Source of the DNA: Lautropia sp.
Lineage (GTDB): Bacteria > Pseudomonadota > Gammaproteobacteria > Burkholderiales > Burkholderiaceae_E
Assembly: GCA_030528325.1 (NCBI GenBank)
Contig: JAUMZD010000016.1
Location: 1-64,000 of the forward strand
Direction of reading: 5' to 3'
Length of the DNA stretch: 64,000 bases
Positions 4,808-32,827 of the stretch are shown piece by piece (positions within the stretch are counted from its first letter, which is position 1; every line of letters begins with the position of its first letter). Below the pieces are notes generated by a model, which did no database searches, was not told the DNA's origin, and saw only the letters and a program-made list of their open reading frames with translations. Both the position numbers and the translations under genes were made by a program.

Positions 4808-5527
4808 TCAGGTGTCAGGTGATAAAGGCGTTGCCATGCCGGAGGCACGGCGAGGGTCTGAGACAAGGGCCCGCGTAATGCAATCGCTCAGTTCAGGATC
4901 CATCTGCATCCGTTCAAGGCACTGTTTCAGCCAGTTGAGGTCGCGGATCATGCCGCAGGCATCGTGATAGGCTCGGGCGACATGCTGGCCGTAGGCTGAT
5001 TCGGCTTTTTCCCATGCCTGCGAAGGAATCTCTCCCCAGTGGGCGATCATCATGGCCAGGTCGATGATGTCCCGGTTCAATGTGGATCGATCCTGACCGC
5101 GATCGGCATTGGCCAGCAGCTTTTCAGCGTACATGTCTGCCCTGCAGAGCACCGGCACGCTGAGAACCTCATCAACGCTGCCTCCGATTCTGATTCTCCC
5201 TTCGTTGACGATCTCAAGCTTGATCGGAACGCCATCGATATCGATGACGGTGCGGATGCCATAGCGATCGGCCCGGATCTCGCGTCGGTATGACAGCGGG
5301 CTTTTGAGCAGGCGCCCGAGGCTTTGCTGGGTGATGGTGTTTCTCAGCAATCGGTAGCCTTCGGTCGACGCACACAGAAAATCGATATCGCGTGATTCCC
5401 TGTACTCCGACAGGGCCATGACGATGGCGGTCCCGCCGCCAAAATAGCAGTCCGCTTCCTGAAGAAAGGCCGTGTCGAAGGCAGCCAGCACACGAGCAAT
5501 GCGTTGGTGATGGAGTCTTTCAAACAT
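4808..5527 (-). CDS. Nucleotidyltransferase of the AbiEii/DUF1814 family (type IV TA-like toxin)
   Basis: YFGGGTAIVMALSEYRESRDIDFL matches the Pol-beta-type hG[GS]...DhD signature. Its start overlaps the stop of the upstream small gene by 8 nt. Confidence 0.65.
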   Translation of the reverse strand: MFERLHHQRIARVLAAFDTAFLQEADCYFGGGTAIVMALSEYRESRDIDFLCASTEGYRLLRNTITQQSLGRLLKSPLSYRREIRADRYGIRTVIDIDGVPIKLEIVNEGRIRIGGSVDEVLSVPVLCRADMYAEKLLANADRGQDRSTLNRDIIDLAMMIAHWGEIPSQAWEKAESAYGQHVARAYHDACGMIRDLNWLKQCLERMQMDPELSDCITRALVSDPRRASGMATPLSPDT

Positions 5528-6610: not shown

Positions 6611-8359
6611 TCACCCCTGCAGCGCCTGAATCTCCCGCCATCCCAGCCCGAACTTTCGTAGGTACTTGCGCAGGCGGTCGGTGTCGTTGACCGCGCTGCG
6701 CTGGGTGCGGGACTGGTCGAAGAGGGTTCGGCCAGCTTCGGCCAGGCTCCGGCTTTGCCGGCAGGTGGCGATGACGGCTTCCAGTTGCAGGCGGTCGAAG
6801 CGGTCGAGTCCCGCCAGTGTCCCGGCGGGCAGCAGCTGTTCCAGCAGCGCGGGGGCTGGCAGGTTGTCGGCTTTTGCGCTGGCGGGTTGTGCCTCACGCC
6901 GGGGGGAGGGGGTGAGCGGGGCCGTTTCTGTCATGTCCTGCCACAGCCATTGCAGCCGGGCGATCTCGGCTTCGACCAGATCCGTGGTGATGCGTCCGCC
7001 TTCGGCGAGCGTGGCCAATCGGGTGATACTGGCCGACAGGTCGCGGAAGTTGCCCCGCCAGGGGGCATCAGGGCTCTGGGCGAACTGCAGGTAACGGGTT
7101 TTGGCCTCACGATTGAAGTGAGCGGCCTTGCCGCCTTCGGTGGGCATTCGGGCCAGCAGGTGGTCGATGTTGGGCTCCAGATCTTCGGGGCGTTCGGCCA
7201 GCCCGGGCAGGTGCCAGCTCCAGAGATTGATGCGGGCGAAGAGATCTTCGCGGAAGCGCCCGGCGGCCACTTCATGGCGCAGGTCGCGGTTGGTGCCGGC
7301 CATCAGCTGGAAATCGCTGTGCACCTCATGATCACTGCCCATCGGCAGAAAGCGTTTTTCCTCGACGGCCTTCAGCAGCATGGCCTGCTCGTCCTGACCC
7401 AGTTCGGCGATCTCGTCCAGAAACAGCACGCCCTGATGAGCGCTGCGAAGCAGTCCGGCCCGTTCGCTGGCTGCACCGGTGAAGGCGCCTCGTTTGTGAC
7501 CGAACAGAGTGCTGCTGGCGGTGTCACCGTGCAGGGTGGCACAGTTCACCTCGATGAAGTCGCCCTGCACCTGATGGCGGGCCTTTTTCAGCTCGTACAG
7601 CCGCCGGGCCAGGTGGGATTTGCCGGCACCGGTGGGCCCGGTCAGCAGGATCGGGGCTTTGGAGCGCACGGCCACCTGCTCGATCTCGTCGATCAGCCGG
7701 TTGAAGCGCGGGTTTCGGGTCGGAATGCCGTTCTTCAGATAATCCTGCGCCTGCTGGCGGGCGTGCTCGAAGCGCTGGGCCAGCCCGTCGTATCGGGACA
7801 GGTCGAGGTCGATCAGCGTGTAGGTGCCGACAGAGGCTGCACCTTTGGCCCGGGGGCTGGCGCTGTTGTCGTGATGCCCGTCGTGCCGGACTGGCTCGCG
7901 CGGCCCCTGGGCCAAGGGCAGCGATGGTCGCTGGCGGGGCGGCGAGCTTTGCAGCAGCACGCCCGGGATGAAACGGGCCTCCACCATCAGGAACAGACAG
8001 ATCTGTGCCACATGGGTGCCGGTCGTGATGTGTACCCAGTAGTCTTCGCGCTCGGTATCGAAGTGTTGGCGCTTCGCCCAGTCGTAGAGGTTGGCGTATA
8101 CCTCGCCGAAGTCCCAGGGGTCGGCCAGCGGCATCGGAATCGGATTCACCTGCGTGTGGGGCGACACCTCTGCGATGTCGGCCACGACCGTCTCCAGCAG
8201 TGCCTGGTACTTCGGTGCGTGGAACAGTTCCAGGCGGTCGATCGGATGAGGCTGCTGGACCATCGATAGCGTGGGGCGCCATTTCTTCCAGCGCCCGGCG
8301 CGCAGGCCGCTATCGAGCTGGGTACCGAGATAGCCGATGATGACGGTGCGTTTGTTCAT
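6611..8359 (-). CDS. rtcR: RtcR, sigma-54-dependent transcriptional activator with an N-terminal CARF domain
   Basis: MNKRTVIIGYLGTQLD... (CARF-like N-terminus), Walker A LLTGPTGAGKSHLAR, the GAFTGA motif of sigma-54 activators (KRGAFTGAASER), and a C-terminal HTH. Start taken at the ATG at 8359. Confidence 0.8.
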   Translation of the reverse strand: MNKRTVIIGYLGTQLDSGLRAGRWKKWRPTLSMVQQPHPIDRLELFHAPKYQALLETVVADIAEVSPHTQVNPIPMPLADPWDFGEVYANLYDWAKRQHFDTEREDYWVHITTGTHVAQICLFLMVEARFIPGVLLQSSPPRQRPSLPLAQGPREPVRHDGHHDNSASPRAKGAASVGTYTLIDLDLSRYDGLAQRFEHARQQAQDYLKNGIPTRNPRFNRLIDEIEQVAVRSKAPILLTGPTGAGKSHLARRLYELKKARHQVQGDFIEVNCATLHGDTASSTLFGHKRGAFTGAASERAGLLRSAHQGVLFLDEIAELGQDEQAMLLKAVEEKRFLPMGSDHEVHSDFQLMAGTNRDLRHEVAAGRFREDLFARINLWSWHLPGLAERPEDLEPNIDHLLARMPTEGGKAAHFNREAKTRYLQFAQSPDAPWRGNFRDLSASITRLATLAEGGRITTDLVEAEIARLQWLWQDMTETAPLTPSPRREAQPASAKADNLPAPALLEQLLPAGTLAGLDRFDRLQLEAVIATCRQSRSLAEAGRTLFDQSRTQRSAVNDTDRLRKYLRKFGLGWREIQALQG

Positions 8360-8401
8360 GCTGGCGGGTGCTTGGGGTTCTGGTCTTGATCCAGTCAACC
8401 A

Positions 8402-8626
8402 CTACTGGAACAGGTGCGCCCGATACTGGCCGGGTGTGACCTCGTCAAAACCCAGCGATGGCAGATCCTGGAAAATCCGACGGTTGATCTCTTTCAGGTG
8501 CCAGGCGTCGAATTTCCCTTTGACAGGATTCAGTCTGAGTTCGACAAGACGAGCCCATGTATGTCTGGCTTCAAGTACCTGTCGCCGCCCTGATGTCAGG
8601 GCCGGGTTTGGGTGTCGATCTTTCAC
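8402..8626 (-). pseudogene. 5' fragment of a Fic/Doc-family toxin gene (stops before the HPFx[DE]GNGR core)
   Basis: ...AWHLKEINRRIFQDLPSLGFDEVTPGQYRAHLFQ* resembles the Fic helix preceding the active-site motif. The ORF ends 43 nt from the rtcR start. Confidence 0.4.
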
Positions 8627-8955
8627 TCGGCGCCTTTGACGAATTGTGCGAGATCTATCTCACCCCGAATGAAGCGCTGGGCGTGTTCTTCATCAGTGGG
8701 ACTCAGCTGGAAGCCTTCCAGTGCGACCGAAGCGCGAGCGTAGTTGATGGCCTCCTCGCGTTCCCTGCGGTTGTGATGCCCGATGGGGACGGAGATCGTC
8801 TGAGGTGTTTTTCTGGCGGCGGAACGCTGGACGTATTCACGCATGAAGTCGCGCAAAACCTGTGCGGCAGGGCGGTGCTCAAGCTCAGCAGCCTCGGCGA
8901 ACTGCGCGCGCAAGTCTGCTTCTACCCGGAATGTCATGGTGACAGCTTTGTTCAT
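8623..8955 (-). CDS. FicA/VbhA-type antitoxin with an N-terminal RHH-like segment
   Basis: MNKAVTMTFRVEADLRAQFAEAAELEHRPAAQVLRDFMREYV (RHH) and the inhibitory S/TxxxE(G/N) motif in ASVALEGFQLSPTDEEHAQRFIRGEIDL. The start could also be the upstream ATG at 9030. Confidence 0.5.
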   Translation of the reverse strand: MNKAVTMTFRVEADLRAQFAEAAELEHRPAAQVLRDFMREYVQRSAARKTPQTISVPIGHHNRREREEAINYARASVALEGFQLSPTDEEHAQRFIRGEIDLAQFVKGAE

Positions 8956-9074
8956 GGGGACTTGTCTGTGTGTGATGGATAGGCGAACGTAATTACATTG
9001 TAATGAAAGTGTCATGACACCAGAAGGCATCCAGCTTTGGACTCAGGCCCCTGCTGCCTTCTCTTCATCACTGG

Positions 9075-9140
9075 ACTCACGATTGTATATATCTGATTTT
9101 CTATCAATATATCTAAAATTCTAAAATTGTTCTGTGCCAC
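9075..9140 (-). promoter_or_regulatory. AT-rich repeat-containing promoter or IHF-like region upstream of the ficA-like gene
   Basis: cgattgtatatatctgattttctatcaatatatctaaaattctaaaattg: an AT-rich island in a GC-rich genome with repeated atatatct and aaaattct units. Confidence 0.3.
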
Positions 9141-9398
9141 TTAGGCTGTACCGGGCAGAAGGTCTCATGGCCAGGGCAGGGAATCATACGAGCTTCCGGG
9201 CGCTGTCTTGGATGCCCCCTGTGGACGCATCTTCCTGCTCCCTGGAGATCGCGGAGCCGTTGCCAACACTTTGAATCCATTGAGGGCTCTGCGGGATTGG
9301 CATCCTGCGCTGATTGCCCGGAGGGGCTTTGTCCGGCCTGAAAAATTCTCGGCACGCGCCCTTCATGTCGTCGTCATGATGCATCCCCAATGCCAGGT

Positions 9399-9414
9399 TG
9401 GCACGGGTCTTGCT
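9399..9414 (+). promoter_or_regulatory. Sigma-54 (-24/-12) promoter, perfect consensus, oriented toward the SPFH and rtcB genes
   Basis: TTGGCACG-ggtc-TTGCT matches TGGCACG-N4-TTGCW exactly. Confidence 0.55.
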
Positions 9415-9512
9415 TGGTAATGCTCATCAACCACGGCTGCCTGGCTGACAGCAACGCTTTCGGTTCGGCCACCAGAGCAGAGGGCTTGGGGTTCGGGTCA
9501 GACCTGCCCCAG

Positions 9513-9714
9513 CGGTGCCGGTGTCCATCGTCTTCATCGGTGAAGAACGATGTGGACGGTCGGCATGCCGCCAGGTAGTCGTGGGAGAGGTGGTGCGCAG
9601 GTTGGCGTGTGAGCGCATGGCCGGTTCAAGTCCGGCGGCACCACAGGTGGCTCTGCTCGGGTTGGAGCAACGTCCTGAAAAGACGTCTGGCAGGTTCGAT
9701 TCCTGTCTTTGTAC
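9513..9714 (+). ncRNA. Candidate Y-RNA-like / tRNA-like noncoding RNA (two tandem tRNA-mimic modules) downstream of the sigma-54 promoter
   Basis: Module 1 (9513..9643): a 7-bp acceptor-like stem cggtgcc/ggcacca, a long bulged helix (gtccatcgtcttc-atcggt-gaagaacgatgtggac) and a canonical T-arm gccgg-TTCAAGT-ccggc. Module 2 (9650..9706): D-arm GCTC-11nt-GAGC, an anticodon-like arm acgtc-CTGAAAA-gacgt, and T-arm gcagg-TTCGATT-cctgt, with no pairing acceptor stem. Confidence 0.3.
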
Positions 9715-10032
9715 GACGGGCCGAAAGGCTGGTCGCAATCAGAGCAAATCTGGCTGGACAGGCAGGTGTCCGGGCGCAGGCGATGTTCTCCGGCGGGATC
9801 GCTTCCCGAAGGAAATGCGCGTGCCGTCCCGGCCCTGCCACCGCATCAGCGGCCTTGCGTGTCATGAACGGGTCGTGGTGATGGGTCGGGTGAAGGTGGT
9901 GAGGTACTGCCGCCAGAGTCTGGCTGCACACCCTGATCCCCATGGCACCCGCCGCTGATGCGGGTCTGACCGGATTCGTCCGACCACAGCAGGAATTGTC
10001 CAATCAGATAACTCGGCAAATCAACAAATCAG

Positions 10033-10106
10033 CAGATCAACGGATCAACGGATCAGCGGATCAGTGAGCCAGCGAACCAATTGAGCAACGAATCCGCTGA
10101 TCAGGA
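10033..10106 (+). promoter_or_regulatory. Tandem GGATCA(A/G)C repeats plus an inverted repeat (ATCAGCGGAT...ATCCGCTGAT) immediately upstream of the SPFH gene
   Basis: cagATCAACGGATCAACGGATCAGCGGATCAGtgag ... gaATCCGCTGATCAgg, followed by the purine-rich RBS region ggaaaggaagagaaagaaaagga. Confidence 0.35.
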
Positions 10107-10133
10107 AAGGAAGAGAAAGAAAAGGATTCCATC

Positions 10134-11309
10134 ATGAAAACCTACGGCTGGAAAAGCTTTCAAGTCAGCAAGCATGAGCGCGCACTGCTGGTGCGCAATG
10201 GCGACGTGGAGCGTCTGCTGCCGGCTGGCCGGCATCGGGTGAAGGGCTGGGGGGATGTGCTGAGCGTCGCCCGCCTGTCGGGCTCTGAATCCGCGTTCGA
10301 TCATCCGCTGGCCGAACAGATTCTGGATGCCGGGCAGCGCGATGGCGCCGGCATGACGGATTGGTGGCAGCACCTGATCGCGGTGAGGCTGGCCGATGAC
10401 GAGGTGGGCCTGCTGATCGAGGACGATCTGCTGACGGCAGTCTTGCCGCCGGGCACGCGCCGGTTGTTCTGGAAAGCGCCGCGGCCGATTCGTGTCGAGA
10501 CCGTCTCGCTGTTGGCGGGTGTGCAGATGGCGCCGGCACTGGTGGCCAGGCTTCAACCGCTGATGGCCCGTGCCGGAACAGATGCCGTGGGCGGTGTCCT
10601 GCTGGTGCAGGTGCCGCAACACCATGCGGGTCTGCTGCGCGTCGATGGCGTATTGCAGCCGCTGCTGTCGACGGGCGTGCATGGATTCTGGCGCTTCGGC
10701 CCGGATGTCTCGATCGAGGTGGTGGATCTGCGCACGCAGACCACCGAGGTCGGCGGGCAGGAAATCCTGTCGCGGGACAAGGTGAGCCTGCGGCTGAACC
10801 TGCTCGCCGGCTGGCGCTATCAGGATGTGGCGCGGGCTTTTGCCCAATGGCCTCAGCCGGCGGATCAGGTGTATCGTGAGCTGCAATTCGCATTGCGTGC
10901 GGTGGTTGGCGCCCAGACGCTCGATGGGCTGCTGTCGGACAAGGCGCAGATGGATGCGGCGCTGATGGTCCAGGTGGGGCCGCGTCTGGCAGCACACGGT
11001 ATCGTTCTGGAGAGCGTCGGCGTGAAGGACATCATCCTGCCGGGCGAGATGCGTACGCTGCTGGCCAAGGTGGTCGAGGCCGAGAAAGCGGCGCAGGCCA
11101 ACCTGATCCGCCGACGGGAGGAAACCGCAGCCACGCGTTCACTCCTGAACACGGCCAAGGTGATGGAAGACAACCCGGTGGCGCTGCGGATGAAGGAACT
11201 GGAAACGCTGGAGCGGGTGGCCGAGCGCATCGACCGGATTTCGGTGGTCGGCGGGCTGGATCAGGTGCTGGATGGGCTGGTGAAGCTGCGTCCGGCGAAG
11301 AAGGGATGA
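10134..11309 (+). CDS. SPFH/band-7 (slipin-like) domain protein
   Basis: 391 aa with a central SPFH-like region and a C-terminal coiled-coil (EAEKAAQANLIRRREETAATR...ALRMKELETLERVAERIDRI). Confidence 0.65.
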   Translation: MKTYGWKSFQVSKHERALLVRNGDVERLLPAGRHRVKGWGDVLSVARLSGSESAFDHPLAEQILDAGQRDGAGMTDWWQHLIAVRLADDEVGLLIEDDLLTAVLPPGTRRLFWKAPRPIRVETVSLLAGVQMAPALVARLQPLMARAGTDAVGGVLLVQVPQHHAGLLRVDGVLQPLLSTGVHGFWRFGPDVSIEVVDLRTQTTEVGGQEILSRDKVSLRLNLLAGWRYQDVARAFAQWPQPADQVYRELQFALRAVVGAQTLDGLLSDKAQMDAALMVQVGPRLAAHGIVLESVGVKDIILPGEMRTLLAKVVEAEKAAQANLIRRREETAATRSLLNTAKVMEDNPVALRMKELETLERVAERIDRISVVGGLDQVLDGLVKLRPAKKG

Positions 11310-11466
11310 CACAGGCATGAATGAAGACCGGGGCCAGCGAGTGTGCTCCGCTTTGGCAGGTTGACAAAGCATGACGGTGAAAAGTATGAGCATGCGGGAA
11401 ATGGAAAACACTACGACAACGAAAAAAGCAACAGCAACAGCAATGGAGAGGGCAGTGGCGACGGCA

Positions 11467-12774
11467 ATGGAATCGGATACGGAAACAGCCACGACAACGA
11501 CGAGGACATCCGGGCAAGCATCGGGCCTGTCGACGGTATTTCCTCATGACGATTCGCTACCATATAATCAGATCACGAATGACGGAGCCGTCCCGGTGAA
11601 AATGTGGACGAAAGGCGTGCCGGTGGAGGATGAAGCCCGGCAGCAGCTGGAAAACGTCGCGCGGCTGCCGATCGTGTTCCGCCATGTGGCGGCCATGCCG
11701 GATGTGCATTACGGTATCGGGGCCACGGTGGGCTCCGTGATTCCCACCTTTCGGGCCATCATCCCGGCGGCCGTGGGGGTGGATATCGGTTGCGGGATGA
11801 TCGCCTGCAAGACGACGTTGCGCGCAGCCGATCTGCCTGACAATCTTGGCCCGTTGCGGGCTGCGATCGAGCAGGCCGTGCCGCATGGTATCTCGCCACG
11901 GCGTGCCGGGCGGGACAAGGGGTCGTGGGAAACGCCACCGCCAGAGACCGATGCGGCCTGGGCCGGGCTGGTGGATGAGTTCCGGCAGATCTGTGAAAAA
12001 TATCCCCGCCTGGAGAAGACCAACAACTACACGCAGCTGGGTACGCTGGGTACCGGCAACCATTTCATCGAGATCTGTCTGGATCAGGATGGGGTGGTCT
12101 GGATCATGCTGCACAGCGGTTCCCGCGGGGTGGGTAATGCCATCGGCACGCATTTCATCGAACTGGCGAAGCAGGATGCCGAGCAGCATCAGCGAAACCT
12201 GCCGGACAGGGATCTGGCCTATTTCGAGGAAGGCAGCCGTTATTTCGGGGATTATGTGAAGGCGGTGGGCTGGGCGCAGCGCTTTGCCCGGGCCAATCGG
12301 GAAGTGATGATGCAGCGGGTGATCGCTGCGATGAGAAGGATCATCACGAAGCCATTCCAGACACATCTGGAAGCGGTCAACTGTCATCACAACTACGTGC
12401 AGAAGGAACGGCATTTCGGTGAGGACGTGTTCGTGACCCGCAAGGGGGCCGTATCCGCGCGTGAAGGCGAGCTGGGTATCATCCCGGGCAGCATGGGGGC
12501 CCGCAGCTACATCGTGCGTGGGAAGGGCAATCCGGAGAGTTTCATGAGTTGCAGTCACGGTGCCGGGCGGCGGATGAGCCGCAACCAGGCGAAGAAGCGC
12601 TTCACGGTGGCCGACCAGATCCGGGCCACCGAAGGGGTGGAATGCCGCAAGGATGCCGAGGTGATCGATGAAATCCCGATGGCCTACAAGGACATCGACG
12701 CCGTGATGGCGGCACAGCGTGACCTCGTGGATGTGGTCTACACGCTGAAGCAGGTGGTGTGCGTGAAGGGATGA
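11467..12774 (+). CDS. rtcB: RtcB RNA ligase (3'-phosphate/5'-hydroxyl); true start uncertain
   Basis: AVPVKMWTKGVPVE, MPDVHYGIGATVGSVIPT, GTGNHFIEI, SMSCSHGAGRRMSR. The track ORF starts at 11371 with a low-complexity Thr/Ala-rich extension. The conserved RtcB sequence begins near 11560. Confidence 0.8.
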   Translation: MESDTETATTTTRTSGQASGLSTVFPHDDSLPYNQITNDGAVPVKMWTKGVPVEDEARQQLENVARLPIVFRHVAAMPDVHYGIGATVGSVIPTFRAIIPAAVGVDIGCGMIACKTTLRAADLPDNLGPLRAAIEQAVPHGISPRRAGRDKGSWETPPPETDAAWAGLVDEFRQICEKYPRLEKTNNYTQLGTLGTGNHFIEICLDQDGVVWIMLHSGSRGVGNAIGTHFIELAKQDAEQHQRNLPDRDLAYFEEGSRYFGDYVKAVGWAQRFARANREVMMQRVIAAMRRIITKPFQTHLEAVNCHHNYVQKERHFGEDVFVTRKGAVSAREGELGIIPGSMGARSYIVRGKGNPESFMSCSHGAGRRMSRNQAKKRFTVADQIRATEGVECRKDAEVIDEIPMAYKDIDAVMAAQRDLVDVVYTLKQVVCVKG

Positions 12775-12793
12775 CATCACGCTCAGGAGGATT

Positions 12794-12837
12794 GGGTGGC
12801 CGGTTTGCAGCCCGCGACTGTCCTGCCGCCCAAGCTC
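12794..12837 (+). repeat. Terminal-arm fragment of the MITE-like repeat family
   Basis: ggccggtttgcagcccgcgactgtcctgccgcccaagctc matches the arm of the element at 19014..19176. Confidence 0.5.
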
Positions 12838-12919
12838 TTCAGACGGCTCGGTGTTGATGGGGCGGCCGGGCCGTGCTACGATGCACATCGTTTGTAACAC
12901 GTCTTGCGAGGGCATCATC

Positions 12920-13207
12920 ATGGCCGACTCCACTTTTACCTTCCGGGTCGATGAAGCCTTGAAAGCGGAGTTTTCCACGGCCGCCAGGGCGCTTGACCGT
13001 AGCGGTGCGCAGCTGTTGCGTGACTTCATGCGGGAGTTCGTGCAGAAACAACAGGAGGCGGCTGCGCATGACGCCTGGTTCCGTCGTCAGGTTCAACGCG
13101 GTCTGGATTCGGCCGAGGCTGGCCGTCTGATTCCGGCGGCTGAGGTCGAGGCGAACTTTGCGGCCCGGCGGGCGGCCACGCGCCGTCGTCTTGAAGGTGT
13201 GGAGTGA
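12920..13207 (+). CDS. parD: ParD-like RHH antitoxin
   Basis: MADSTFTFRVDEALKAEFSTAARALDRSGAQLLRDFMREFV; 4-nt overlap with the downstream toxin gene. Confidence 0.6.
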   Translation: MADSTFTFRVDEALKAEFSTAARALDRSGAQLLRDFMREFVQKQQEAAAHDAWFRRQVQRGLDSAEAGRLIPAAEVEANFAARRAATRRRLEGVE

Positions 13208-13500
13208 TGCGTCTGTGCTGGACGCCTGAGGCCGTTCGAGACCGCGAGGACATCTATGCCCATGTCGAGGCAGACAATCCGATTGCAGCCCTGGCACTTG
13301 ATGAGCTGTTTTCGGAGAAGGCCCGGTATCTGACCGATCATCCCGGCCTGGGGCGGATGGGGCGGGTGGCCGGGACGCGGGAGCTGGTCGTTCATCGGAA
13401 CTACGTTCTGATCTATGACCTGGCAGGGGATCAGGTTCGCGTGTTGCGTGTGTTGCATGCGGCGCGTCAATGGCCGCCTGAGCATTCGTCGACGCCGTGA
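13204..13500 (+). CDS. parE: ParE/RelE-family toxin
   Basis: 98 aa: ...IYAHVEADNPIAALALDELFSEKARYLTDHPGLGR...RELVVHRNYVLIYDLAGDQVRVLRVLHAARQWP. Confidence 0.6.
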   Translation: MMRLCWTPEAVRDREDIYAHVEADNPIAALALDELFSEKARYLTDHPGLGRMGRVAGTRELVVHRNYVLIYDLAGDQVRVLRVLHAARQWPPEHSSTP

Positions 13501-13524
13501 GGCCGGGTGGAGAGGGCGGCTGGC

Positions 13525-13586
13525 CGTGATGGCCGCCCAGCGTGACCTCGTGGATGTGGTGTACACCCTGAAGCAGGTCGTGTGCA
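13525..13586 (+). repeat. Duplicated copy of the last ~62 nt of rtcB (original at 12701..12762)
   Basis: ccgtgatggc(c/g)gc(c/a)cagcgtgacctcgtggatgtggt(g/c)tacac(c/g)ctgaagcaggt(c/g)gtgtgc. The copy encodes AAQRDLVDVVYTLKQVVC. Confidence 0.7.
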
Positions 13587-13598
13587 TAACACGCTCTA
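13585..13598 (+). repeat. 14-bp direct repeat CATAACACGCTCTA (left copy) flanking the MoxR-vWA module
   Basis: Identical to 16666..16679. Confidence 0.6.
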
Positions 13599-13659
13599 AA
13601 GGGTGATTTACCCTGCAAGGGGTATTTCACCATTCAGCGAAAAGTTTTCCGGATGAACC

Positions 13660-14724
13660 ATGCAAGCCAGCATTTCCCTGTCTCCCTCCCAGCTTTCCGA
13701 GTTCCTGCTCAACGTTGCCACCGTGCGGCCGGTGTTCATCTGGGGGCCGCCGGGCATCGGCAAGTCGGCCCTGGTCACGCAGTTTGCCGAGAGTGTCGGT
13801 CTGCCGTGCGTCTCGTTGCTGGGCAGCCAGCTGGCGCCCGAAGACCTGATGGGCGTGCCGCAGATCCGTGATGGGGTGACGCGATTCTGCCCGCCGGCGA
13901 TGATCGCCCGTGAGGAGCCTTACTGCCTGTTTCTGGATGAGTTGAATGCCTGCTCGCAGGATGTACAGAAGGCCTTCTACAGCCTGATCCATGATCGCCG
14001 GGTGGGGGAATACACATTGCCCGAAGGCTCGATCGTGATCGGCGCCGGCAATCGGGCGCAGGATTCGGCCATCGTCAAGCCGATGTCGTCGGCGCTGATG
14101 AATCGCATGGTGCATGTTCATCTGCGGGTCTCGGCCAGCGAATGGCTGCAGTGGGCCACGTCGGCCGGCCTGCATCCACTGGTCATCGATTATCTGAGCC
14201 AGCGTCCCGATCATCTCTGGAGTCAGCCGCCCAGGCATGAAGAACCGTTCTCCACGCCACGTGCCTGGCACATGCTCAGTGATGCACTGCATGGGTTCGG
14301 GGAACAGCTGCCGCCCGTGATGATGGAGGCGCTGGCAGCAGGGTGTCTGACACCACAGCATGCTGCCCAGTTCCGGGCCTTTGGCAAGCTGGCCGGGGAT
14401 CGACACCGGCTCGATGCGATCATCAAGGGGGATGCCCGCTGGCCGCACGATCCGGCCGACCGCGACCTGCTGTATTTCCTGGTGCAGGCGTTCCGTGCCC
14501 GCCTGTTGAAGGTGCTGCCGGCCGAGAAGAATCTGGTCAGCGCCGAGGAGCAGGCTTTCGTTCACCGCAGCAAGGCCATGCTGAAAGAAATCGCGCAGAT
14601 CAGCCTGGAGATGGCGCAGATCGTGGTCGCGCAGGAGGCGGACGCGGCCTTGCCAGCCTGGTACATGGTGGAGGTCGTGCGTGACCTGCCCCGGCTGGTC
14701 GAGAAGAAAGCCGAGGCGAAGTGA
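13660..14724 (+). CDS. MoxR-family AAA+ ATPase (AAA_5 / CbbQ-NorQ-like)
   Basis: Walker A IWGPPGIGKSALV, Walker B CLFLDELN, and a sensor region. Translationally coupled (ATGA overlap) to the downstream vWA gene. Confidence 0.8.
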   Translation: MQASISLSPSQLSEFLLNVATVRPVFIWGPPGIGKSALVTQFAESVGLPCVSLLGSQLAPEDLMGVPQIRDGVTRFCPPAMIAREEPYCLFLDELNACSQDVQKAFYSLIHDRRVGEYTLPEGSIVIGAGNRAQDSAIVKPMSSALMNRMVHVHLRVSASEWLQWATSAGLHPLVIDYLSQRPDHLWSQPPRHEEPFSTPRAWHMLSDALHGFGEQLPPVMMEALAAGCLTPQHAAQFRAFGKLAGDRHRLDAIIKGDARWPHDPADRDLLYFLVQAFRARLLKVLPAEKNLVSAEEQAFVHRSKAMLKEIAQISLEMAQIVVAQEADAALPAWYMVEVVRDLPRLVEKKAEAK

Positions 14725-16595
14725 TGGGGCGAGCCGGTTCACGAGCCAGGGCGGCCACACCGGCCTCGCGGCATTACGAGGACGGGCTGCGTCTTTTGAG
14801 GACACATCCGGTTTTCGAGCCGCTGTATGAGCGCGTCCGCTGGGTGCGCAACACCTTCATCCATCGCAGCGCCCTCATCTGGCCGTCGGATGAATGGCCG
14901 GCCGATGCGTGGCTGTGGCTCGGCCGTGACGAGCATCTGTATGTTCACCCGAAGCGTCTGGCCGAGCCTGAGGTCTGGGCGCATGTGATGGCGCGTGGGC
15001 TGCTCTATCACGCGCTTGAACTGTGGCAGCCCGATCGCGGCAACTGGGAGGCCTGGAGTGCAGCCTGCGATGTGGTGACGGCCCGCTTCTTGCAGGGCAT
15101 CAAGTTCTACCGAAGCCCCGAGGGGATGACGCTGCCGGATGATCTGCCCGCCTGGGATGAGGCGCGCTGGTATCGGCAGTTCTGCGAGGATGGCGTGCCC
15201 GATTGGGCCGCAGCCCTGTCGCTGGCAGGCCGGACGAGGCCGACGATGCAGGCGCCGGGCGATTGGCCCGACAGGCGCGCCGATCCGTTTCGGGTCAGCT
15301 GGCCGGAGGCGTTTTCGGCGGGCATCGCCGAATCCGTCAGGCAGGCGGTGGAGGTCGTGGCCGGCCTGCGTTCTTCGTTAGGTAGCGAATTGATCGCTTC
15401 TTCGGGCCAGGGAGGGCGTGGCGAACTGCGAGCCCTCACCCGGCAGGCCAGGGACTGGTTCATCAGCAGTTTTCCGCTACTGGGCGCGATGGTCGCCTCT
15501 TTCGAGTTCGTCGAGGATGCCGGGTTGTGCCGGCGAGAAGATATCCTGGTGGCGGCGGTCGATGAAAGCCTGCGCACGATCTATCTGAATCCGGCCGTGG
15601 GGCTGGACGAGCAGGAAAGCCGTTTCGTCATTGCGCACGAAGTGCTGCATGTGGCACTCAGGCATCTGCCGCGCCGCCAGGGGCGTGACCCGTGGCTTTG
15701 GAACGTGGCCTGTGATTTCGTCATCAACGACTGGCTGATCCAGATGCAGGTCGGCACGCCGCCTGCCTTGGGGTTGTTGTTCGATGAGGGCTTGCGAGGC
15801 CTGTCGGCCGAAGAGATCTATGACCGGATCGCACGTGATCTGCGGCGCATGAGAAAACTGCGCACACTGGCCGGCGGGCAATGCGACATGCTGGAGCGCC
15901 GTCTTGATACCCGGCAGGTACCGTTCACCGATCTCGATGCCTTCTGCCGCGAGCAGCTTGGCAAGGGGTTGTTGCTGCATCAGCAGCAGGGGCGGGGTTA
16001 TCTGCCGGCCGGATTGATCGAGGAGATTAACGCGCTGCTGCAACCGCCCATCCCGTGGGAGGTGCAGCTGGCCCGATGGTTCGATCATCATTTTCCGCCG
16101 CTGGAAACCCGGCGCACCTATGCGCGATTGTCGCGGCGCCAGTCGGCCACACCCGACATTCCACGCCCCCATCTGGGGGTGGATGAAAGCCGGCGGGCGG
16201 GCCGAACCTTCGGCGTGGTGCTCGATTCTTCCGGCTCGATGTCCCGGCAGATGCTGGCACGCGCGCTGGGCGCCATCGCCAGCTATGCCGAGGCGAAGGA
16301 GGTCGCGGCGGTTCGAGTGGTGTTCTGCGATGCGCGACCCCATGATGCCGGTTATCTGGCGGCGCATGACATTGCCGGTCGGGTGCGGGTGCATGGGCGA
16401 GGTGGCACCGTGCTGCAACCGGGCATCGACCTGTTGCAGGATGCGGCGGATTTCCCGCCGGACGGGCCGATCCTGATCATCACCGATGGTCAGTGCGATG
16501 TGCTGAAGATCCGGCGCAGCCATGCTTTCCTGATGCCGCCGGGCGCAGGCTTGCCCTTCGTGCCACGGGGCGAGGTGTTCCGGATGACGGACTGA
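14721..16595 (+). CDS. vWA-domain protein with an N-terminal HExxH (DUF2201_N-like putative metallopeptidase) domain, partner of the MoxR ATPase
   Basis: FVIAHEVLHVALRHL (HExxH), a MIDAS-type vWA motif VVLDSSGSM, and ...ILIITDGQCD. Confidence 0.7.
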   Translation: MMGRAGSRARAATPASRHYEDGLRLLRTHPVFEPLYERVRWVRNTFIHRSALIWPSDEWPADAWLWLGRDEHLYVHPKRLAEPEVWAHVMARGLLYHALELWQPDRGNWEAWSAACDVVTARFLQGIKFYRSPEGMTLPDDLPAWDEARWYRQFCEDGVPDWAAALSLAGRTRPTMQAPGDWPDRRADPFRVSWPEAFSAGIAESVRQAVEVVAGLRSSLGSELIASSGQGGRGELRALTRQARDWFISSFPLLGAMVASFEFVEDAGLCRREDILVAAVDESLRTIYLNPAVGLDEQESRFVIAHEVLHVALRHLPRRQGRDPWLWNVACDFVINDWLIQMQVGTPPALGLLFDEGLRGLSAEEIYDRIARDLRRMRKLRTLAGGQCDMLERRLDTRQVPFTDLDAFCREQLGKGLLLHQQQGRGYLPAGLIEEINALLQPPIPWEVQLARWFDHHFPPLETRRTYARLSRRQSATPDIPRPHLGVDESRRAGRTFGVVLDSSGSMSRQMLARALGAIASYAEAKEVAAVRVVFCDARPHDAGYLAAHDIAGRVRVHGRGGTVLQPGIDLLQDAADFPPDGPILIITDGQCDVLKIRRSHAFLMPPGAGLPFVPRGEVFRMTD

Positions 16596-32742: not shown

Positions 32743-32827
32743 GCCCGGGTGGTGAAACTGGTAGACGCAGGGGACTCAAAATCCCCCGCCGCGAGGCGTG
32801 TCGGTTCGAGTCCGACCCCGGGCACCA
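32743..32827 (+). tRNA. tRNA-Leu (anticodon CAA)
   Basis: GCCCGGG acceptor stem, long D-loop GGTGAAACTGGTAGA, anticodon loop CT-CAA-AA, a long variable arm, T-arm GGTTCGAGTCC, and 3' ...CCCGGGCACCA. Confidence 0.8.

What the first reader, a model, noticed from the sequence alone, without database searches (positions are those of the whole stretch)
9513..9714. Candidate Y-RNA-like noncoding RNA: tandem tRNA-mimic modules in the sigma-54 leader
Module 1 is a closed acceptor-like helix (cggtgcc/ggcacca), a 13-bp helix with two bulges, and a textbook T-arm (gccgg-TTCAAGT-ccggc). Module 2 has a D-arm (GCTC/GAGC with GG in the loop), a 5-bp stem with a 7-nt CT-GAA-AA loop (an anticodon-arm mimic), and a second T-arm (TTCGATT). 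In Salmonella and many other bacteria the RtcR/sigma-54-controlled operon rsr-yrlBA-rtcBA encodes Y RNAs whose hallmark is a tRNA-like domain plus a bulged Ro-binding helix. Here the same position holds tRNA-like structure but no rsr (Ro60) gene, and an SPFH gene follows instead.
Basis: partly seen in the sequence, partly recalled or inferred. Interest (0 to 1): 0.75.

Follow-up and report, generated by a model that had tools for sequence, protein, structure and literature searches.

The report
tRNA-like leader RNA of slipin–RtcB operon
The flagged stretch is the middle of a conserved, folded leader RNA that carries two tRNA look-alikes in front of an RNA-repair operon; this kind of RNA (the 'Band-7-associated tRNA') was predicted by others in 2016 and, as far as I could find, has not been tested, so it is real but not a new kind of element.

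Summary
Real feature, partly mis-parsed, and of a kind already predicted. The window is a Lautropia MAG. RtcR (6611-8398, minus) faces a sigma-54 promoter (9399-9414). That promoter drives a ~700-nt leader, then slipin/Band-7 (10134-11309), RtcB, a MoxR-like AAA and a VWA protein. Module 2 (9641-9713) is a cloverleaf tRNA mimic. A model built from the tRNA-likes upstream of slipin in other genomes hits it at 36.7 bits. It scores below Rfam's tRNA cut-off, has a weak acceptor stem and no CCA. Across relatives the 'anticodon' loop is variable and is often a tetraloop. This is the b7a-tRNA of Burroughs and Aravind (2016). Its '13-bp bulged helix' belongs to a conserved 5' three-way-junction domain (9434-9581), found in 73 of 83 loci and absent from Rfam. 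Its T-arm belongs to a D-armless mini tRNA-like (9591-9643) that closes locally. The proposed cggtgcc/ggcacca closing helix is not supported. It is not a YrlA/Y RNA: there is no rsr in the operon, no Rsr-binding motif and no permuted arm order. It plausibly works like one, as the RNA partner of the slipin scaffold. That mechanism is inferred.

The parts
6611..8398 (-). rtcR: sigma-54-dependent activator with an RtcR/CARF N-terminal domain, divergently oriented
   Evidence: Pfam RtcR 5e-72 and Sigma54_activat 1e-48. Same arrangement in relative L082.
9399..9414 (+). sigma-54 promoter TGGCACGGGTCTTGCT (-24/-12 elements). The inferred transcription start is near 9425.
   Evidence: Regex match to TGGCAC-N5-TTGCW. 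Conserved in L081 and L082. Equivalent promoters lie about 520 nt upstream of slipin in about 40 loci. No sigma-70-like promoter and no terminator inside the leader. The start site itself is inferred.
9434..9581 (+). Conserved 5' three-way-junction domain. P1 pairs 9434-9445 with 9570-9581. A clade-specific inserted hairpin lies at about 9455-9483. P3 pairs 9484-9491 with 9507-9513. The P4 base pairs GGUGC 9514-9518 with 9563-9569 and has an A9565-U9566 bulge.
   Evidence: Model R2 was built from 55 loci without the window's clade. It hits the 64-kb window once, at 9470-9573, 37 bits, E=1.5e-5. On alignment A5, 90.7% of cells pair and the covariation score is 0.478 against 0.198 shuffled. P1 cognate duplexes average -19.9 against -15.3 kcal/mol for non-cognate pairs, with 0 of 5000 permutations as low. 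L081 changes two P1 G-U pairs to G-C. R2 hits once per locus in 73 of 83 loci.
9591..9643 (+). Module 1: a D-armless mini tRNA-like. The acceptor pairs 9591-9596 with 9638-9643 (6 bp, G9597/G9637 mismatched). The core is 22 nt (9598-9619). The T-arm is 9620-9636 (GCCGG-UUCAAGU-CCGGC).
   Evidence: Family-wide parse. The local acceptor averages 6.32 of 7 pairs against 5.47 with mismatched partners, 0 of 2000 permutations as high, with 50 distinct 3' strands in 60 loci. T-arm hit by R1. The MFE fold closes it locally.
9641..9713 (+). Module 2: a cloverleaf tRNA mimic, the b7a-tRNA homologue. The D arm pairs 9654-9658 with 9665-9669. The anticodon-like arm is 9670-9686 with loop CUGAAAA. The T arm is 9690-9706 (UUCGAUU). 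The acceptor is weak (4-5 of 7 pairs) and no CCA is encoded.
   Evidence: ARAGORN. Rfam tRNA 27.4 bits against a gathering score of 29. R1 36.7 bits, E=5e-12. Homologues at the same position in 75 of 80 genome loci score 54-85 bits. Cloverleaf covariation on A3: 91.4% paired, score 0.524 against 0.157.
9715..9734 (+). GNRA-capped hairpin directly after module 2 (GACGGGCC-GAAA-GGCUGGUC). It has no U-tract and is not a terminator.
   Evidence: Compensatory changes in L081 (GACCAGCC-GAGA-GGCUGGUC) and L082 (GACUGGCC-GACA-GGCCGGUC). A hairpin at this place occurs in other clades. The terminator scan is negative.
9735..10133 (+). Rest of the leader. A block conserved among close relatives lies at about 9835-9975, an 8-nt tandem repeat (AUCAACGG) at 10020-10063, and the Shine-Dalgarno region before the slipin ATG.
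   Evidence: Alignment of four close relatives. TRF. Partially conserved motifs in other clades. The function was not analysed.
10134..11309 (+). Slipin / SPFH (Band-7) protein, 391 aa. I saw no obvious membrane segment.
   Evidence: Pfam Band_7 1e-21. 100% identical to a 'slipin family protein [Lautropia sp.]'. Translation.
11371..12774 (+). RtcB RNA ligase
   Evidence: Pfam RtcB 5e-131.
13660..16595 (+). MoxR-like AAA ATPase (13660-14724) and DUF2201 metallopeptidase/VWA-like protein (14721-16595), the distal operon genes
   Evidence: Pfam on the VWA protein. The same four-gene order, with the ATPase annotated AAA/AAA_5, in L081. NCBIfam gives the window's ATPase only weak AAA+-type matches (RuvB, RFC small subunit, GvpN).

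Best explanation
Identity (well supported). 9513-9714 is the central part of a roughly 300-nt structured RNA at the 5' end of the RtcR/sigma-54-driven transcript of a slipin-rtcB-AAA-VWA RNA-repair operon. The RNA has three modules. The first is a 5' three-way-junction domain with near-invariant GGUGC/GCAUGCC and CUCACAGG-type motifs. The second is a reduced, D-armless tRNA-like. The third is a complete cloverleaf tRNA mimic abutting the second without a spacer. [quoted passage not shown] Mechanism (inferred). When RtcR activates the promoter, the RNA is made together with the proteins. The conserved acceptor/T-arm/elbow geometry lets tRNA-processing enzymes excise stable tRNA-like species: RNase P at the 5' side of each module, and 3' trimming. 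These species do not decode, because the anticodon-like loop is unconstrained. Instead they act as the RNA subunit of the slipin scaffold. One part, most likely the invariant 5' domain, would bind slipin. The tRNA-shaped part would present a tRNA elbow/acceptor surface to RtcB or to tRNA-handling factors. This would parallel the way YrlA/Y RNA couples Ro60 to an effector.
For: Shown. Gene context and promoter. Module 2 is homologous to the tRNA-likes upstream of slipin in other genomes (R1 36.7 bits; 75 of 80 loci at 54-85 bits). The cloverleaf is supported by covariation. Anticodon-like loops differ between loci and are often UUCG or GNRA tetraloops or 4-6 nt loops. No CCA is encoded after module 2. 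The 5' domain is conserved and covarying, present once per locus in 73 of 83 loci, and present in the window. Module 1 is a locally closed acceptor plus T-arm unit. In many Comamonadaceae-type loci module 1 ends in N-CCA exactly where module 2 begins, so a cut at the module 2 5' end would leave a mature CCA terminus. The RNA stays directly upstream of slipin even where RtcR and the sigma-54 promoter are absent (L010) or where rtcB lies elsewhere (L078). This ties it to slipin and not to RtcR. There is no terminator or promoter inside the leader. From the literature: the Band-7/tRNA-like pairing and the scaffold-plus-cognate-RNA idea, and YrlA being modified and processed by tRNA enzymes.
Against: No expression, processing or binding data exist for this RNA in any organism that I could find; the preprint read states it is not validated. 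The window's clade is divergent. Module 2 scores 27-37 bits against 54-85 elsewhere. Its acceptor stem is poor and module 1 has lost the CCA. This could mean relaxed constraint here. The leader continues for about 400 nt of partly conserved sequence, which a purely trans-acting RNA would not need. A few slipin loci lack module 1 (L042, L068) or lack any detectable tRNA-like (L054, L058, L072). Which module binds slipin is a guess.
Confidence: 0.6

Rival explanations
1. Cis-acting leader. The structured 5' UTR controls stability, processing or translation of the slipin-rtcB mRNA and has no role as a separate RNA. For example, RNase P/E cleavage at the tRNA-like modules could uncouple or stabilise the downstream message.
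For: It is part of the mRNA leader with no terminator before slipin. The leader is long (about 520-700 nt) and has further conserved blocks and a hairpin just upstream of the Shine-Dalgarno sequence in many clades. tRNA-like punctuation of polycistronic RNAs is an established processing device (my own knowledge).
Against: The tRNA modules lie 250-420 nt from the start codon and cannot occlude the ribosome-binding site. Full conservation of elbow nucleotides, and an encoded CCA at the module 1 end in many loci, go beyond what a cleavage signal needs. This reading is not exclusive of the main explanation.
Confidence: 0.2
2. Damage sensor or decoy. The tRNA mimics would be cut, or bound, by the same anticodon nucleases or toxins that attack tRNAs. 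This would either titrate the toxins or generate 2',3'-cyclic-phosphate fragments that feed back on the RtcR CARF domain.
For: RtcR in Salmonella is activated by tRNA fragments ending in cyclic phosphate, and a decoy role was suggested for YrlA (PMC7790460). Toxin-antitoxin genes flank the locus: AbiEii, a VbhA-like antitoxin, and YoeB/YefM in L082.
Against: The anticodon-like loop, the usual target of such nucleases, is the least conserved part and is replaced by tetraloops in many species. The RNA persists in loci that have no RtcR. In Salmonella YrlA was not cleaved.
Confidence: 0.1
3. A genuine tRNA-Phe gene, or its decayed pseudogene or an integration-site remnant, that lies upstream of slipin by chance.
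For: ARAGORN calls tRNA-Phe(GAA) with a canonical CUGAAAA loop. That loop is identical in the three closest relatives.
Against: It scores below the Rfam tRNA gathering score. Only 4-5 of 7 acceptor pairs form and there is no CCA. A homologous element occupies the same position in 75 of 80 loci across beta- and gamma-proteobacteria, with different or impossible anticodons. It lies inside a sigma-54 transcription unit, flanked by two further conserved RNA modules.
Confidence: 0.03
4. A true member of the Y RNA/YrlA family that binds a Ro60 (Rsr) protein encoded elsewhere in the genome.
For: Same operon position as yrlA in Salmonella, and a tRNA-like elbow. Per, b7a-tRNA and YrlA occasionally swap protein partners.
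Against: No Y RNA family hit at E<=10. No GNCGAAN0-1G motif near the 5' end, here or in 36 loci. Normal, not permuted, arm order with open, covarying acceptor stems. No rsr in the operon.
Confidence: 0.04

Closest known systems
b7a-tRNA (Band-7-associated tRNA-like RNA) of RtcB-Band-7 RNA-repair systems, predicted by Burroughs and Aravind, Nucleic Acids Res 2016;44:8525
   Same: A tRNA-like gene directly upstream of an SPFH/Band-7 gene next to rtcB. It strongly resembles an authentic tRNA and is proposed as the cognate RNA of the Band-7 scaffold. Module 2 fits this, by position and by covariance-model homology to 75 other such loci.
   Different: I could not read the original paper. I therefore cannot say whether it describes the conserved 5' domain, the second (often reduced, often CCA-ended) tRNA-like module, or the long leader. 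The Lautropia clade's copy is unusually divergent: low model score, weak acceptor stem, enlarged P4 hairpin, an extra hairpin and no CCA.
YrlA / bacterial Y RNAs (Ro60/Rsr partners; Chen et al. 2014, PMC4201824; Wang et al. 2018, bioRxiv 10.1101/312249)
   Same: Encoded in RtcR-controlled rtcB operons just upstream of a scaffold-type protein. Modular, with a protein-binding part plus a tRNA-like part that has canonical D/T-loop elbow nucleotides. Non-decoding.
   Different: YrlA is a circularly permuted tRNA mimic (T arm, closed acceptor stem-loop, D arm) embedded in a 5'/3' stem that carries the GNCGAAN0-1G Rsr site. Here the arms are in normal order with open acceptor stems, there are two tandem modules, the conserved non-tRNA part is a 5' three-way junction, and the partner gene is slipin, not rsr.
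Canonical bacterial tRNA (Rfam RF00005), nominally tRNA-Phe(GAA)
   Same: Cloverleaf with D, anticodon and T arms, a UUCGAUU T-loop, GG in the D-loop and a CUGAAAA loop.
   Different: Below the family cut-off, poor acceptor stem and no CCA. The anticodon is not conserved among orthologous elements. It is transcribed as part of an mRNA leader.
tRNA-like elements excised from longer transcripts (MALAT1 mascRNA; tmRNA tRNA-like domain); my own knowledge plus the introduction of 10.1101/312249
   Same: tRNA mimicry is used to recruit RNase P and CCA-type end recognition. Module 1, like the tmRNA tRNA-like domain, keeps the acceptor and T-arm but has no D stem.
   Different: No evidence here for charging or for a coding function. 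Processing is inferred only from structure.

Membership tests
b7a-tRNA / Band-7-associated tRNA-like RNA | Encoded immediately upstream of, and on the same strand as, an SPFH/Band-7 gene adjacent to rtcB | tested here: met
   Module 2 is 9641-9713, slipin 10134-11309 and RtcB 11371-12774, all on the + strand.
b7a-tRNA / Band-7-associated tRNA-like RNA | Folds as a tRNA-like cloverleaf with canonical D- and T-arm features | tested here: met
   ARAGORN call. R1 full-length alignment. Cloverleaf covariation in the family. The acceptor stem is weak in this clade.
b7a-tRNA / Band-7-associated tRNA-like RNA | Homologous to the tRNA-likes at the same position in other Band-7-RtcB loci | tested here: met
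   R1 was built from 54 such elements and scores the window at 36.7 bits, E=5e-12. 75 of 80 loci carry one at 54-85 bits.
b7a-tRNA / Band-7-associated tRNA-like RNA | Agreement with the original authors' alignment and definition | not testable with these tools
   NAR 2016;44:8525 (PMC5062991) is not held. Only the secondary description in 10.1101/312249 was read.
YrlA / bacterial Y RNA | Encoded next to a Ro60/Rsr (TROVE) gene | tested here: not met
   The operon genes are slipin, RtcB, AAA and VWA. The rest of the 64-kb window was not exhaustively screened for TROVE.
YrlA / bacterial Y RNA | GNCGAAN0-1G motif near the 5' end (putative Rsr-binding site; PMC4201824) | tested here: not met
   The only match in the leader is GCCGAAAG at 9720, in a hairpin loop 3' of module 2. 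It is absent in L081 and L082. 0 of 36 loci have the motif within 80 nt of the promoter.
YrlA / bacterial Y RNA | Circularly permuted tRNA-like domain: T arm, then a closed acceptor stem-loop, then the D arm, with no free acceptor end | tested here: not met
   The order is acceptor 5' strand, D, anticodon arm, T, acceptor 3' strand, with covarying open acceptor stems. The 13 nt between the module 1 T arm and the module 2 D arm form no conserved hairpin.
YrlA / bacterial Y RNA | Match to a curated Y RNA covariance model | tested here: inconclusive
   No Y RNA family appears among Rfam 15 matches at E<=10 over 9300-10000 or in 16 related loci. I could not confirm with a positive control that the library holds a bacterial YrlA model.
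YrlA / bacterial Y RNA | Conserved D-loop/T-loop nucleotides that build a tRNA elbow | tested here: met
   Invariant GCUC...GG...GAGC and GGUUCGA..CC in family alignment A3. The window's copy retains GG and UUCGAUU.
Canonical tRNA (RF00005) | Score at or above the Rfam gathering threshold | tested here: not met
   27.4 bits against 29. Not reported in the gathering-threshold scan.
Canonical tRNA (RF00005) | Anticodon conserved among orthologous genes, with a 7-nt loop | tested here: not met
   Orthologous elements are called Thr, Met, Cys, Val, Lys, Asn, Ile, Arg, Ser or undetermined, and many have 4-6-nt or tetraloop caps.
RtcR/sigma-54-controlled RNA-repair operon | Divergent rtcR plus a -24/-12 promoter upstream of rtcB-containing genes | tested here: met

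The most novel reading that the evidence does not exclude
The known 'b7a-tRNA' may be only one third of a larger, previously undescribed RNA of about 300 nt. That RNA has an invariant 5' three-way-junction domain (not in Rfam 15), a reduced tRNA-like module that in many genomes ends in an encoded N-CCA, and the cloverleaf. RNase P cleavage at the junction would release a CCA-ended minihelix and a CCA-less tRNA mimic. The 5' domain would be the slipin-binding handle. This would make a vault/Ro-like ribonucleoprotein built on an SPFH cage that presents tRNA-shaped RNA to RtcB.
Probability: 0.3. Interest if true: 0.75.

Novelty: new member of a known kind. Interest (0 to 1): 0.5.

Why it matters
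Many bacteria carry RtcB repair operons, but the role of their accessory RNAs is unresolved. The Ro60/Y RNA branch has been studied experimentally. For the SPFH/Band-7 branch I found only a 2016 prediction. This analysis shows that the Band-7-linked RNA is real in the comparative sense: it has covariation in every helix. It is consistently tied to slipin and not to RtcR. It is also larger and more modular than 'a tRNA-like gene'. The analysis provides exact coordinates, two covariance models' worth of alignments and specific processing sites that can be tested. If the three-module architecture is not already described, it deserves an Rfam family. It would also be a tractable system for asking why RNA-repair systems recruit tRNA mimics.

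Tried and rejected
1. I could not read Burroughs and Aravind 2016, either by DOI or by PMC id. Five further literature searches found no description of the 5' domain and no experimental work on b7a-tRNA.
2. The supplement of Chen et al. 2014 is not held. I therefore could not build a YrlA model or run a positive control for Rfam.
3. A scan of viral contigs with CCGGTGC-N20-50-GYATGCCGC gave 120 or more pattern matches. None of the first 80 loci scored with model R2. These are chance matches, so there is no evidence for a phage-borne copy.
4. An Rfam E-value scan of four slipin loci that lack an R1 hit (L054, L058, L064, L072) found nothing upstream of slipin.
5. MAFFT could not align the 5' strands of the reduced module 1 (A6). 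I replaced column counts with a partner-permutation test. An earlier test that shuffled the 3' strand gave only a modest margin, 6.32 against 5.48.
6. I considered and dropped a pseudoknot between the conserved CUCACAGG stretch and a downstream CUUGUGC motif, because it does not covary between clades (sequences).
7. I considered pairing of the 5' GGUGC with a conserved GGCACC near the Shine-Dalgarno sequence. It is only 5 nt and was not tested.
8. I considered P3 as a T-loop; the required U54-A58 pattern is not conserved.
9. NCBIfam gave no names for slipin or for the unknown ORFs.
Full report
CONTEXT. The window is from a Lautropia sp. metagenome-assembled genome: the 391-aa product of 10134-11309 is 100% identical to an NCBI 'slipin family protein [Lautropia sp.]'. 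Pfam assigns 6611-8398 (minus strand) to RtcR (RtcR/CARF domain 5e-72, sigma-54 interaction domain 1e-48). It assigns 10134-11309 to Band_7/SPFH, 11371-12774 to RtcB and 14721-16595 to a DUF2201 metallopeptidase/VWA-like protein. In the closest relatives the order slipin-RtcB-AAA-DUF2201 is contiguous and RtcR is divergent. A textbook sigma-54 promoter, TGGCACGGGTCTTGCT, lies at 9399-9414 and is conserved in those relatives. The leader contains no sigma-70-like promoter and no intrinsic terminator. The flagged interval 9513-9714 therefore lies inside a leader of about 700 nt that is transcribed from the RtcR-dependent promoter into slipin. There is no rsr in the operon.

THE OBSERVATION. ARAGORN calls tRNA-Phe(gaa) at 9642-9714. 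Rfam's tRNA model gives 27.4 bits (E=0.0018), just below its gathering score of 29, and no Y RNA family appears even at E<=10. The Module 1 T-arm (9620-9636) and the long bulged hairpin (9523-9557, 14 bp, bulges at A9546 and G9552-U9553) are also real. The proposed closing helix cggtgcc/ggcacca is the part that fails (see below).

COMPARATIVE DATA. Using an alignment of slipin homologues, I fetched 80 loci from one-genome-per-species bacterial assemblies. They are mostly Burkholderiales, Rhodocyclales, Pseudomonas and a few Enterobacterales. I added three contigs from close relatives with 87-88% slipin identity. ARAGORN finds a tRNA-like gene about 250-330 nt upstream of slipin in most of them. 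The 'anticodon' differs from locus to locus (Thr, Met, Cys, Val, Lys, Asn, Ile, Arg, Ser, or undetermined with 4-6-nt loops). In about a dozen loci there are two abutting tRNA-likes that overlap by 1-3 nt. In Pseudomonas and Burkholderia the anticodon stem is simply capped by UUCG, GAAA or GCAA tetraloops. An alignment of 54 such elements supports the cloverleaf. 91.4% of cells pair, against 71.4% after shuffling. The covariation score is 0.524 against 0.157, and every slid register falls to 34-45% paired. The covariance model R1 built from it hits window 9641-9713 full length at 36.7 bits, E=5e-12. It hits the equivalent position in 75 of 80 genome loci at 54-85 bits. Module 2 is thus a divergent member of this family.

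PRIOR LITERATURE. [quoted passage not shown] It adds that this RNA 'has not been validated experimentally' and that b7a-tRNA and YrlA occasionally swap protein partners. The original paper is not held. No later paper on this RNA turned up. One 2026 paper notes that the P. aeruginosa slipin PaFlo8 is embedded in the rtc locus but says nothing about an RNA.

WHAT 'MODULE 1' REALLY IS. Printing the sequence between the promoter and module 2 for all loci showed that the whole 185-245 nt is conserved in architecture.

(a) The 5' domain. A near-invariant (C/U)CGGUGC is followed by a variable hairpin and then G(C/U)AUGCCGC. RNAalifold and my pair counts show that GGUGC pairs with GCAUGCC, leaving an AU bulge and an invariant U-G pair. 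The closing C-G changes to U-A or G-C in seven loci, and the variable hairpin covaries extensively. Upstream is a GGGG...CCCC hairpin (P3) preceded by a conserved single-stranded CUCACAGG-like stretch. The whole domain is closed by a bipartite long-range helix (P1). The 3' strand of P1 starts right after GCAUGCCGC. Its sequence differs completely between clades while staying complementary. Examples are CCAGCG-CAA-GCGGUG with CACCGC-AAA-CGCUGG in Acidovorax and Delftia, CGACCG...UGCAG with CUGCA...CGGUCG in Pseudomonas, and a continuous 12 bp in the window. Cognate 5'/3' strands give -19.9 kcal/mol against -15.3 for non-cognate combinations, and 0 of 5000 permutations reach the observed value. 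A model of P3+P4 (R2) was built from 55 loci that exclude the window's clade (90.7% paired, covariation 0.478 against 0.198). It finds exactly one significant hit in the 64-kb window, 9470-9573, at 37 bits and E=1.5e-5. It finds exactly one hit per locus, always upstream of slipin, in 73 of 83 loci, including 18 that were not used for training.

(b) The true module 1. After a short linker comes a small unit: a 7-nt 5' strand, a 12-29-nt core that often contains a small tetraloop hairpin, an invariant T-arm and a 7-nt 3' strand. In Pseudomonas and a few others the unit is a complete 72-nt cloverleaf. The 3' strand has 50 distinct sequences in 60 loci, and it pairs with the local 5' strand. The mean is 6.32 of 7 pairs, against 5.47 when 3' strands are swapped between loci, and 0 of 2000 permutations reach that value. 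It cannot covary with the invariant GGUGC. In the window module 1 is 9591-9643, with UGGUGC pairing with GCACCA.

The minimum-free-energy fold of 9430-9740, computed without any comparative input, reproduces P1, P4, the local closure of module 1 and the three arms of module 2.

FEATURES RELEVANT TO MECHANISM. First, modules 1 and 2 abut without a spacer. In many Comamonadaceae and Rubrivivax-type loci, module 1 ends in N-CCA exactly at the first nucleotide of module 2. An RNase P-type cut at module 2 would therefore leave a mature CCA end. The window's clade has CAG or CGG there instead. Second, the conserved parts of the tRNA-likes are the acceptor, the D-loop GG and the T-loop, which form the elbow recognised by tRNA-processing and modifying enzymes. 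The anticodon loop is free to vary. Third, the RNA follows slipin and not RtcR. In L010 (esterase, tRNA array, HNH, RNA, slipin, RtcB, FtsH-like) I detected no RtcR and no sigma-54 promoter. In L078 rtcB lies upstream of a 12-tRNA array, while the RNA still sits directly before slipin. Fourth, a covarying GNRA hairpin follows module 2 (9715-9734). Further blocks of the leader are conserved at least among close relatives.

INTERPRETATION. The identity is secure. This is the Lautropia version of the Band-7-associated tRNA-like RNA, embedded in a three-module leader RNA. The mechanism is inferred by analogy with Ro60/YrlA. I propose co-induction with the operon, excision by tRNA-processing enzymes, and service as the RNA subunit of a soluble slipin scaffold that presents tRNA-shaped RNA to RtcB or to tRNA-handling factors. 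The invariant 5' domain is the likeliest protein-binding handle. The main rival is a purely cis-acting processing or stability role for the leader, and the two are not exclusive. A decoy or sensor role is weakened by the unconstrained anticodon loop and by the loci without RtcR. A real tRNA, a pseudogene or an attachment-site remnant is excluded by conservation and context.

YrlA MEMBERSHIP. Membership is rejected on three tested defining features. There is no adjacent rsr. The GNCGAAN0-1G motif is absent near the 5' end: the single match at 9720 lies in a non-conserved hairpin loop, and 0 of 36 loci have the motif. The arm order is normal and not permuted. The Rfam negative result is only weak evidence, because I could not verify that the library holds a bacterial YrlA model.

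NOVELTY AND SCORE. The kind is known as a computational prediction from 2016. The window adds a divergent member. What may be new is the conserved 5' domain, which gave no Rfam 15 match in any of 16 loci scanned at gathering thresholds, together with the tandem and reduced module 1 and its CCA junction. I could not check these against the original paper, so I treat them as the 'novel case' and not as the verdict. Interest is 0.5. The element is genuine, covarying and untested experimentally, and it bears on an open question: why RNA-repair operons carry tRNA mimics. It is not a surprise to specialists in its basic form.

Noticed in passing
L010 2148-2708; L011 1332-2406; L023 2243-2703; L040 2102-2627; L046 898-1694; L075 30-2569; L078 1919-3350; also L020, L027, L030, L062, L073: Many related Burkholderiales loci carry arrays of 5-13 tRNA genes (Asp, Phe, Arg, Pro, His, Glu, Lys, Leu, Met, Gln and others, mostly 40-65 bits on Rfam tRNA). 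The arrays are on the same strand, 1-2 kb upstream of the slipin RNA. In L078 the array lies between rtcB and slipin, and in L010 it is followed by an HNH endonuclease gene. I detected no RtcR or sigma-54 promoter in these loci. They may be 'spare tRNA plus repair' islands. The window has no such array.
   Followed up: partly
related loci, junction of module 1 and module 2 (e.g. L004 3674-3679, L008 3614-3617, L039 3619-3623): The reduced module 1 ends in an encoded N-CCA exactly where module 2 starts in many Comamonadaceae and Rubrivivax-type loci. The CCA is absent in Pseudomonas, Burkholderia and the window's clade.
   Followed up: partly
window 10020-10063 (and the wider 9995-10100): An 8-nt tandem repeat, AUCAACGG/AUCAGCGG, of about 5.5 copies lies in the leader just upstream of the slipin Shine-Dalgarno region. 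Copy number and sequence differ in L081 (AAUCAACG) and L082. It is CA-rich and unstructured. Its function is unknown.
   Followed up: partly
window 9835-9975: A block of the downstream leader is nearly invariant among the four close relatives (CUGCCACCGCAUCAGCGGCCUUGCG ... GGCACCCGCCGCUGAUGCGGGUCUGACCGG). Motifs such as CAGCGGC..UGUGC and CGGCAC(C) recur near the slipin start in other clades. GGCACC is complementary to the invariant 5' GGUGC.
   Followed up: no
window 8399-9398, ORF 8623-9030 (-): The rtcR-to-promoter spacer is about 700 nt longer than in relative L082. It holds a minus-strand ORF with a VbhA antitoxin domain (Pfam 3.6e-10), a following 74-aa ORF with no family (8402-8626) and an AT-rich stretch at about 9080-9130. 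This looks like an inserted Fic/VbhA-type module.
   Followed up: partly
window 4808-5527 (-); L082 292-919: Toxin-antitoxin genes flank the rtc locus: an AbiEii nucleotidyltransferase toxin in the window, and YoeB/YefM next to rtcR in the relative L082.
   Followed up: no
window 12775-13659: About 850 nt lie between rtcB and the AAA gene, where L081 has 38 nt. The stretch contains a minus-strand 264-aa ORF (12839-13633) with no Pfam or NCBIfam match.
   Followed up: partly
L001 5395-5449, L014 5374-5394, L047 5338-5354, L053 5557-5600, L071 5326-5379: Weak R1 (T-arm-like) hits of 18-20 bits lie downstream of slipin in several loci. The window's 61-nt slipin-rtcB spacer shows nothing comparable by eye.
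   Followed up: no
L008 3930, L015 2916, L021 3930: A second near-consensus sigma-54 element, GGCACCCUGAUUGC, lies 71-91 nt upstream of slipin in three Acidovorax loci, inside the leader.
   Followed up: no
L042 3554-3720; L068 3568-3742; L072 3577-3659: Architecture variants. In L042 and L068 the 5' domain is followed directly by the cloverleaf, with no module 1. L072 (P. entomophila) has the 5' domain but no detectable tRNA-like.
   Followed up: no
window 32743-32827: A bona fide tRNA-Leu(CAA) (Rfam 50.8 bits), the only canonical tRNA in the window.
   Followed up: no
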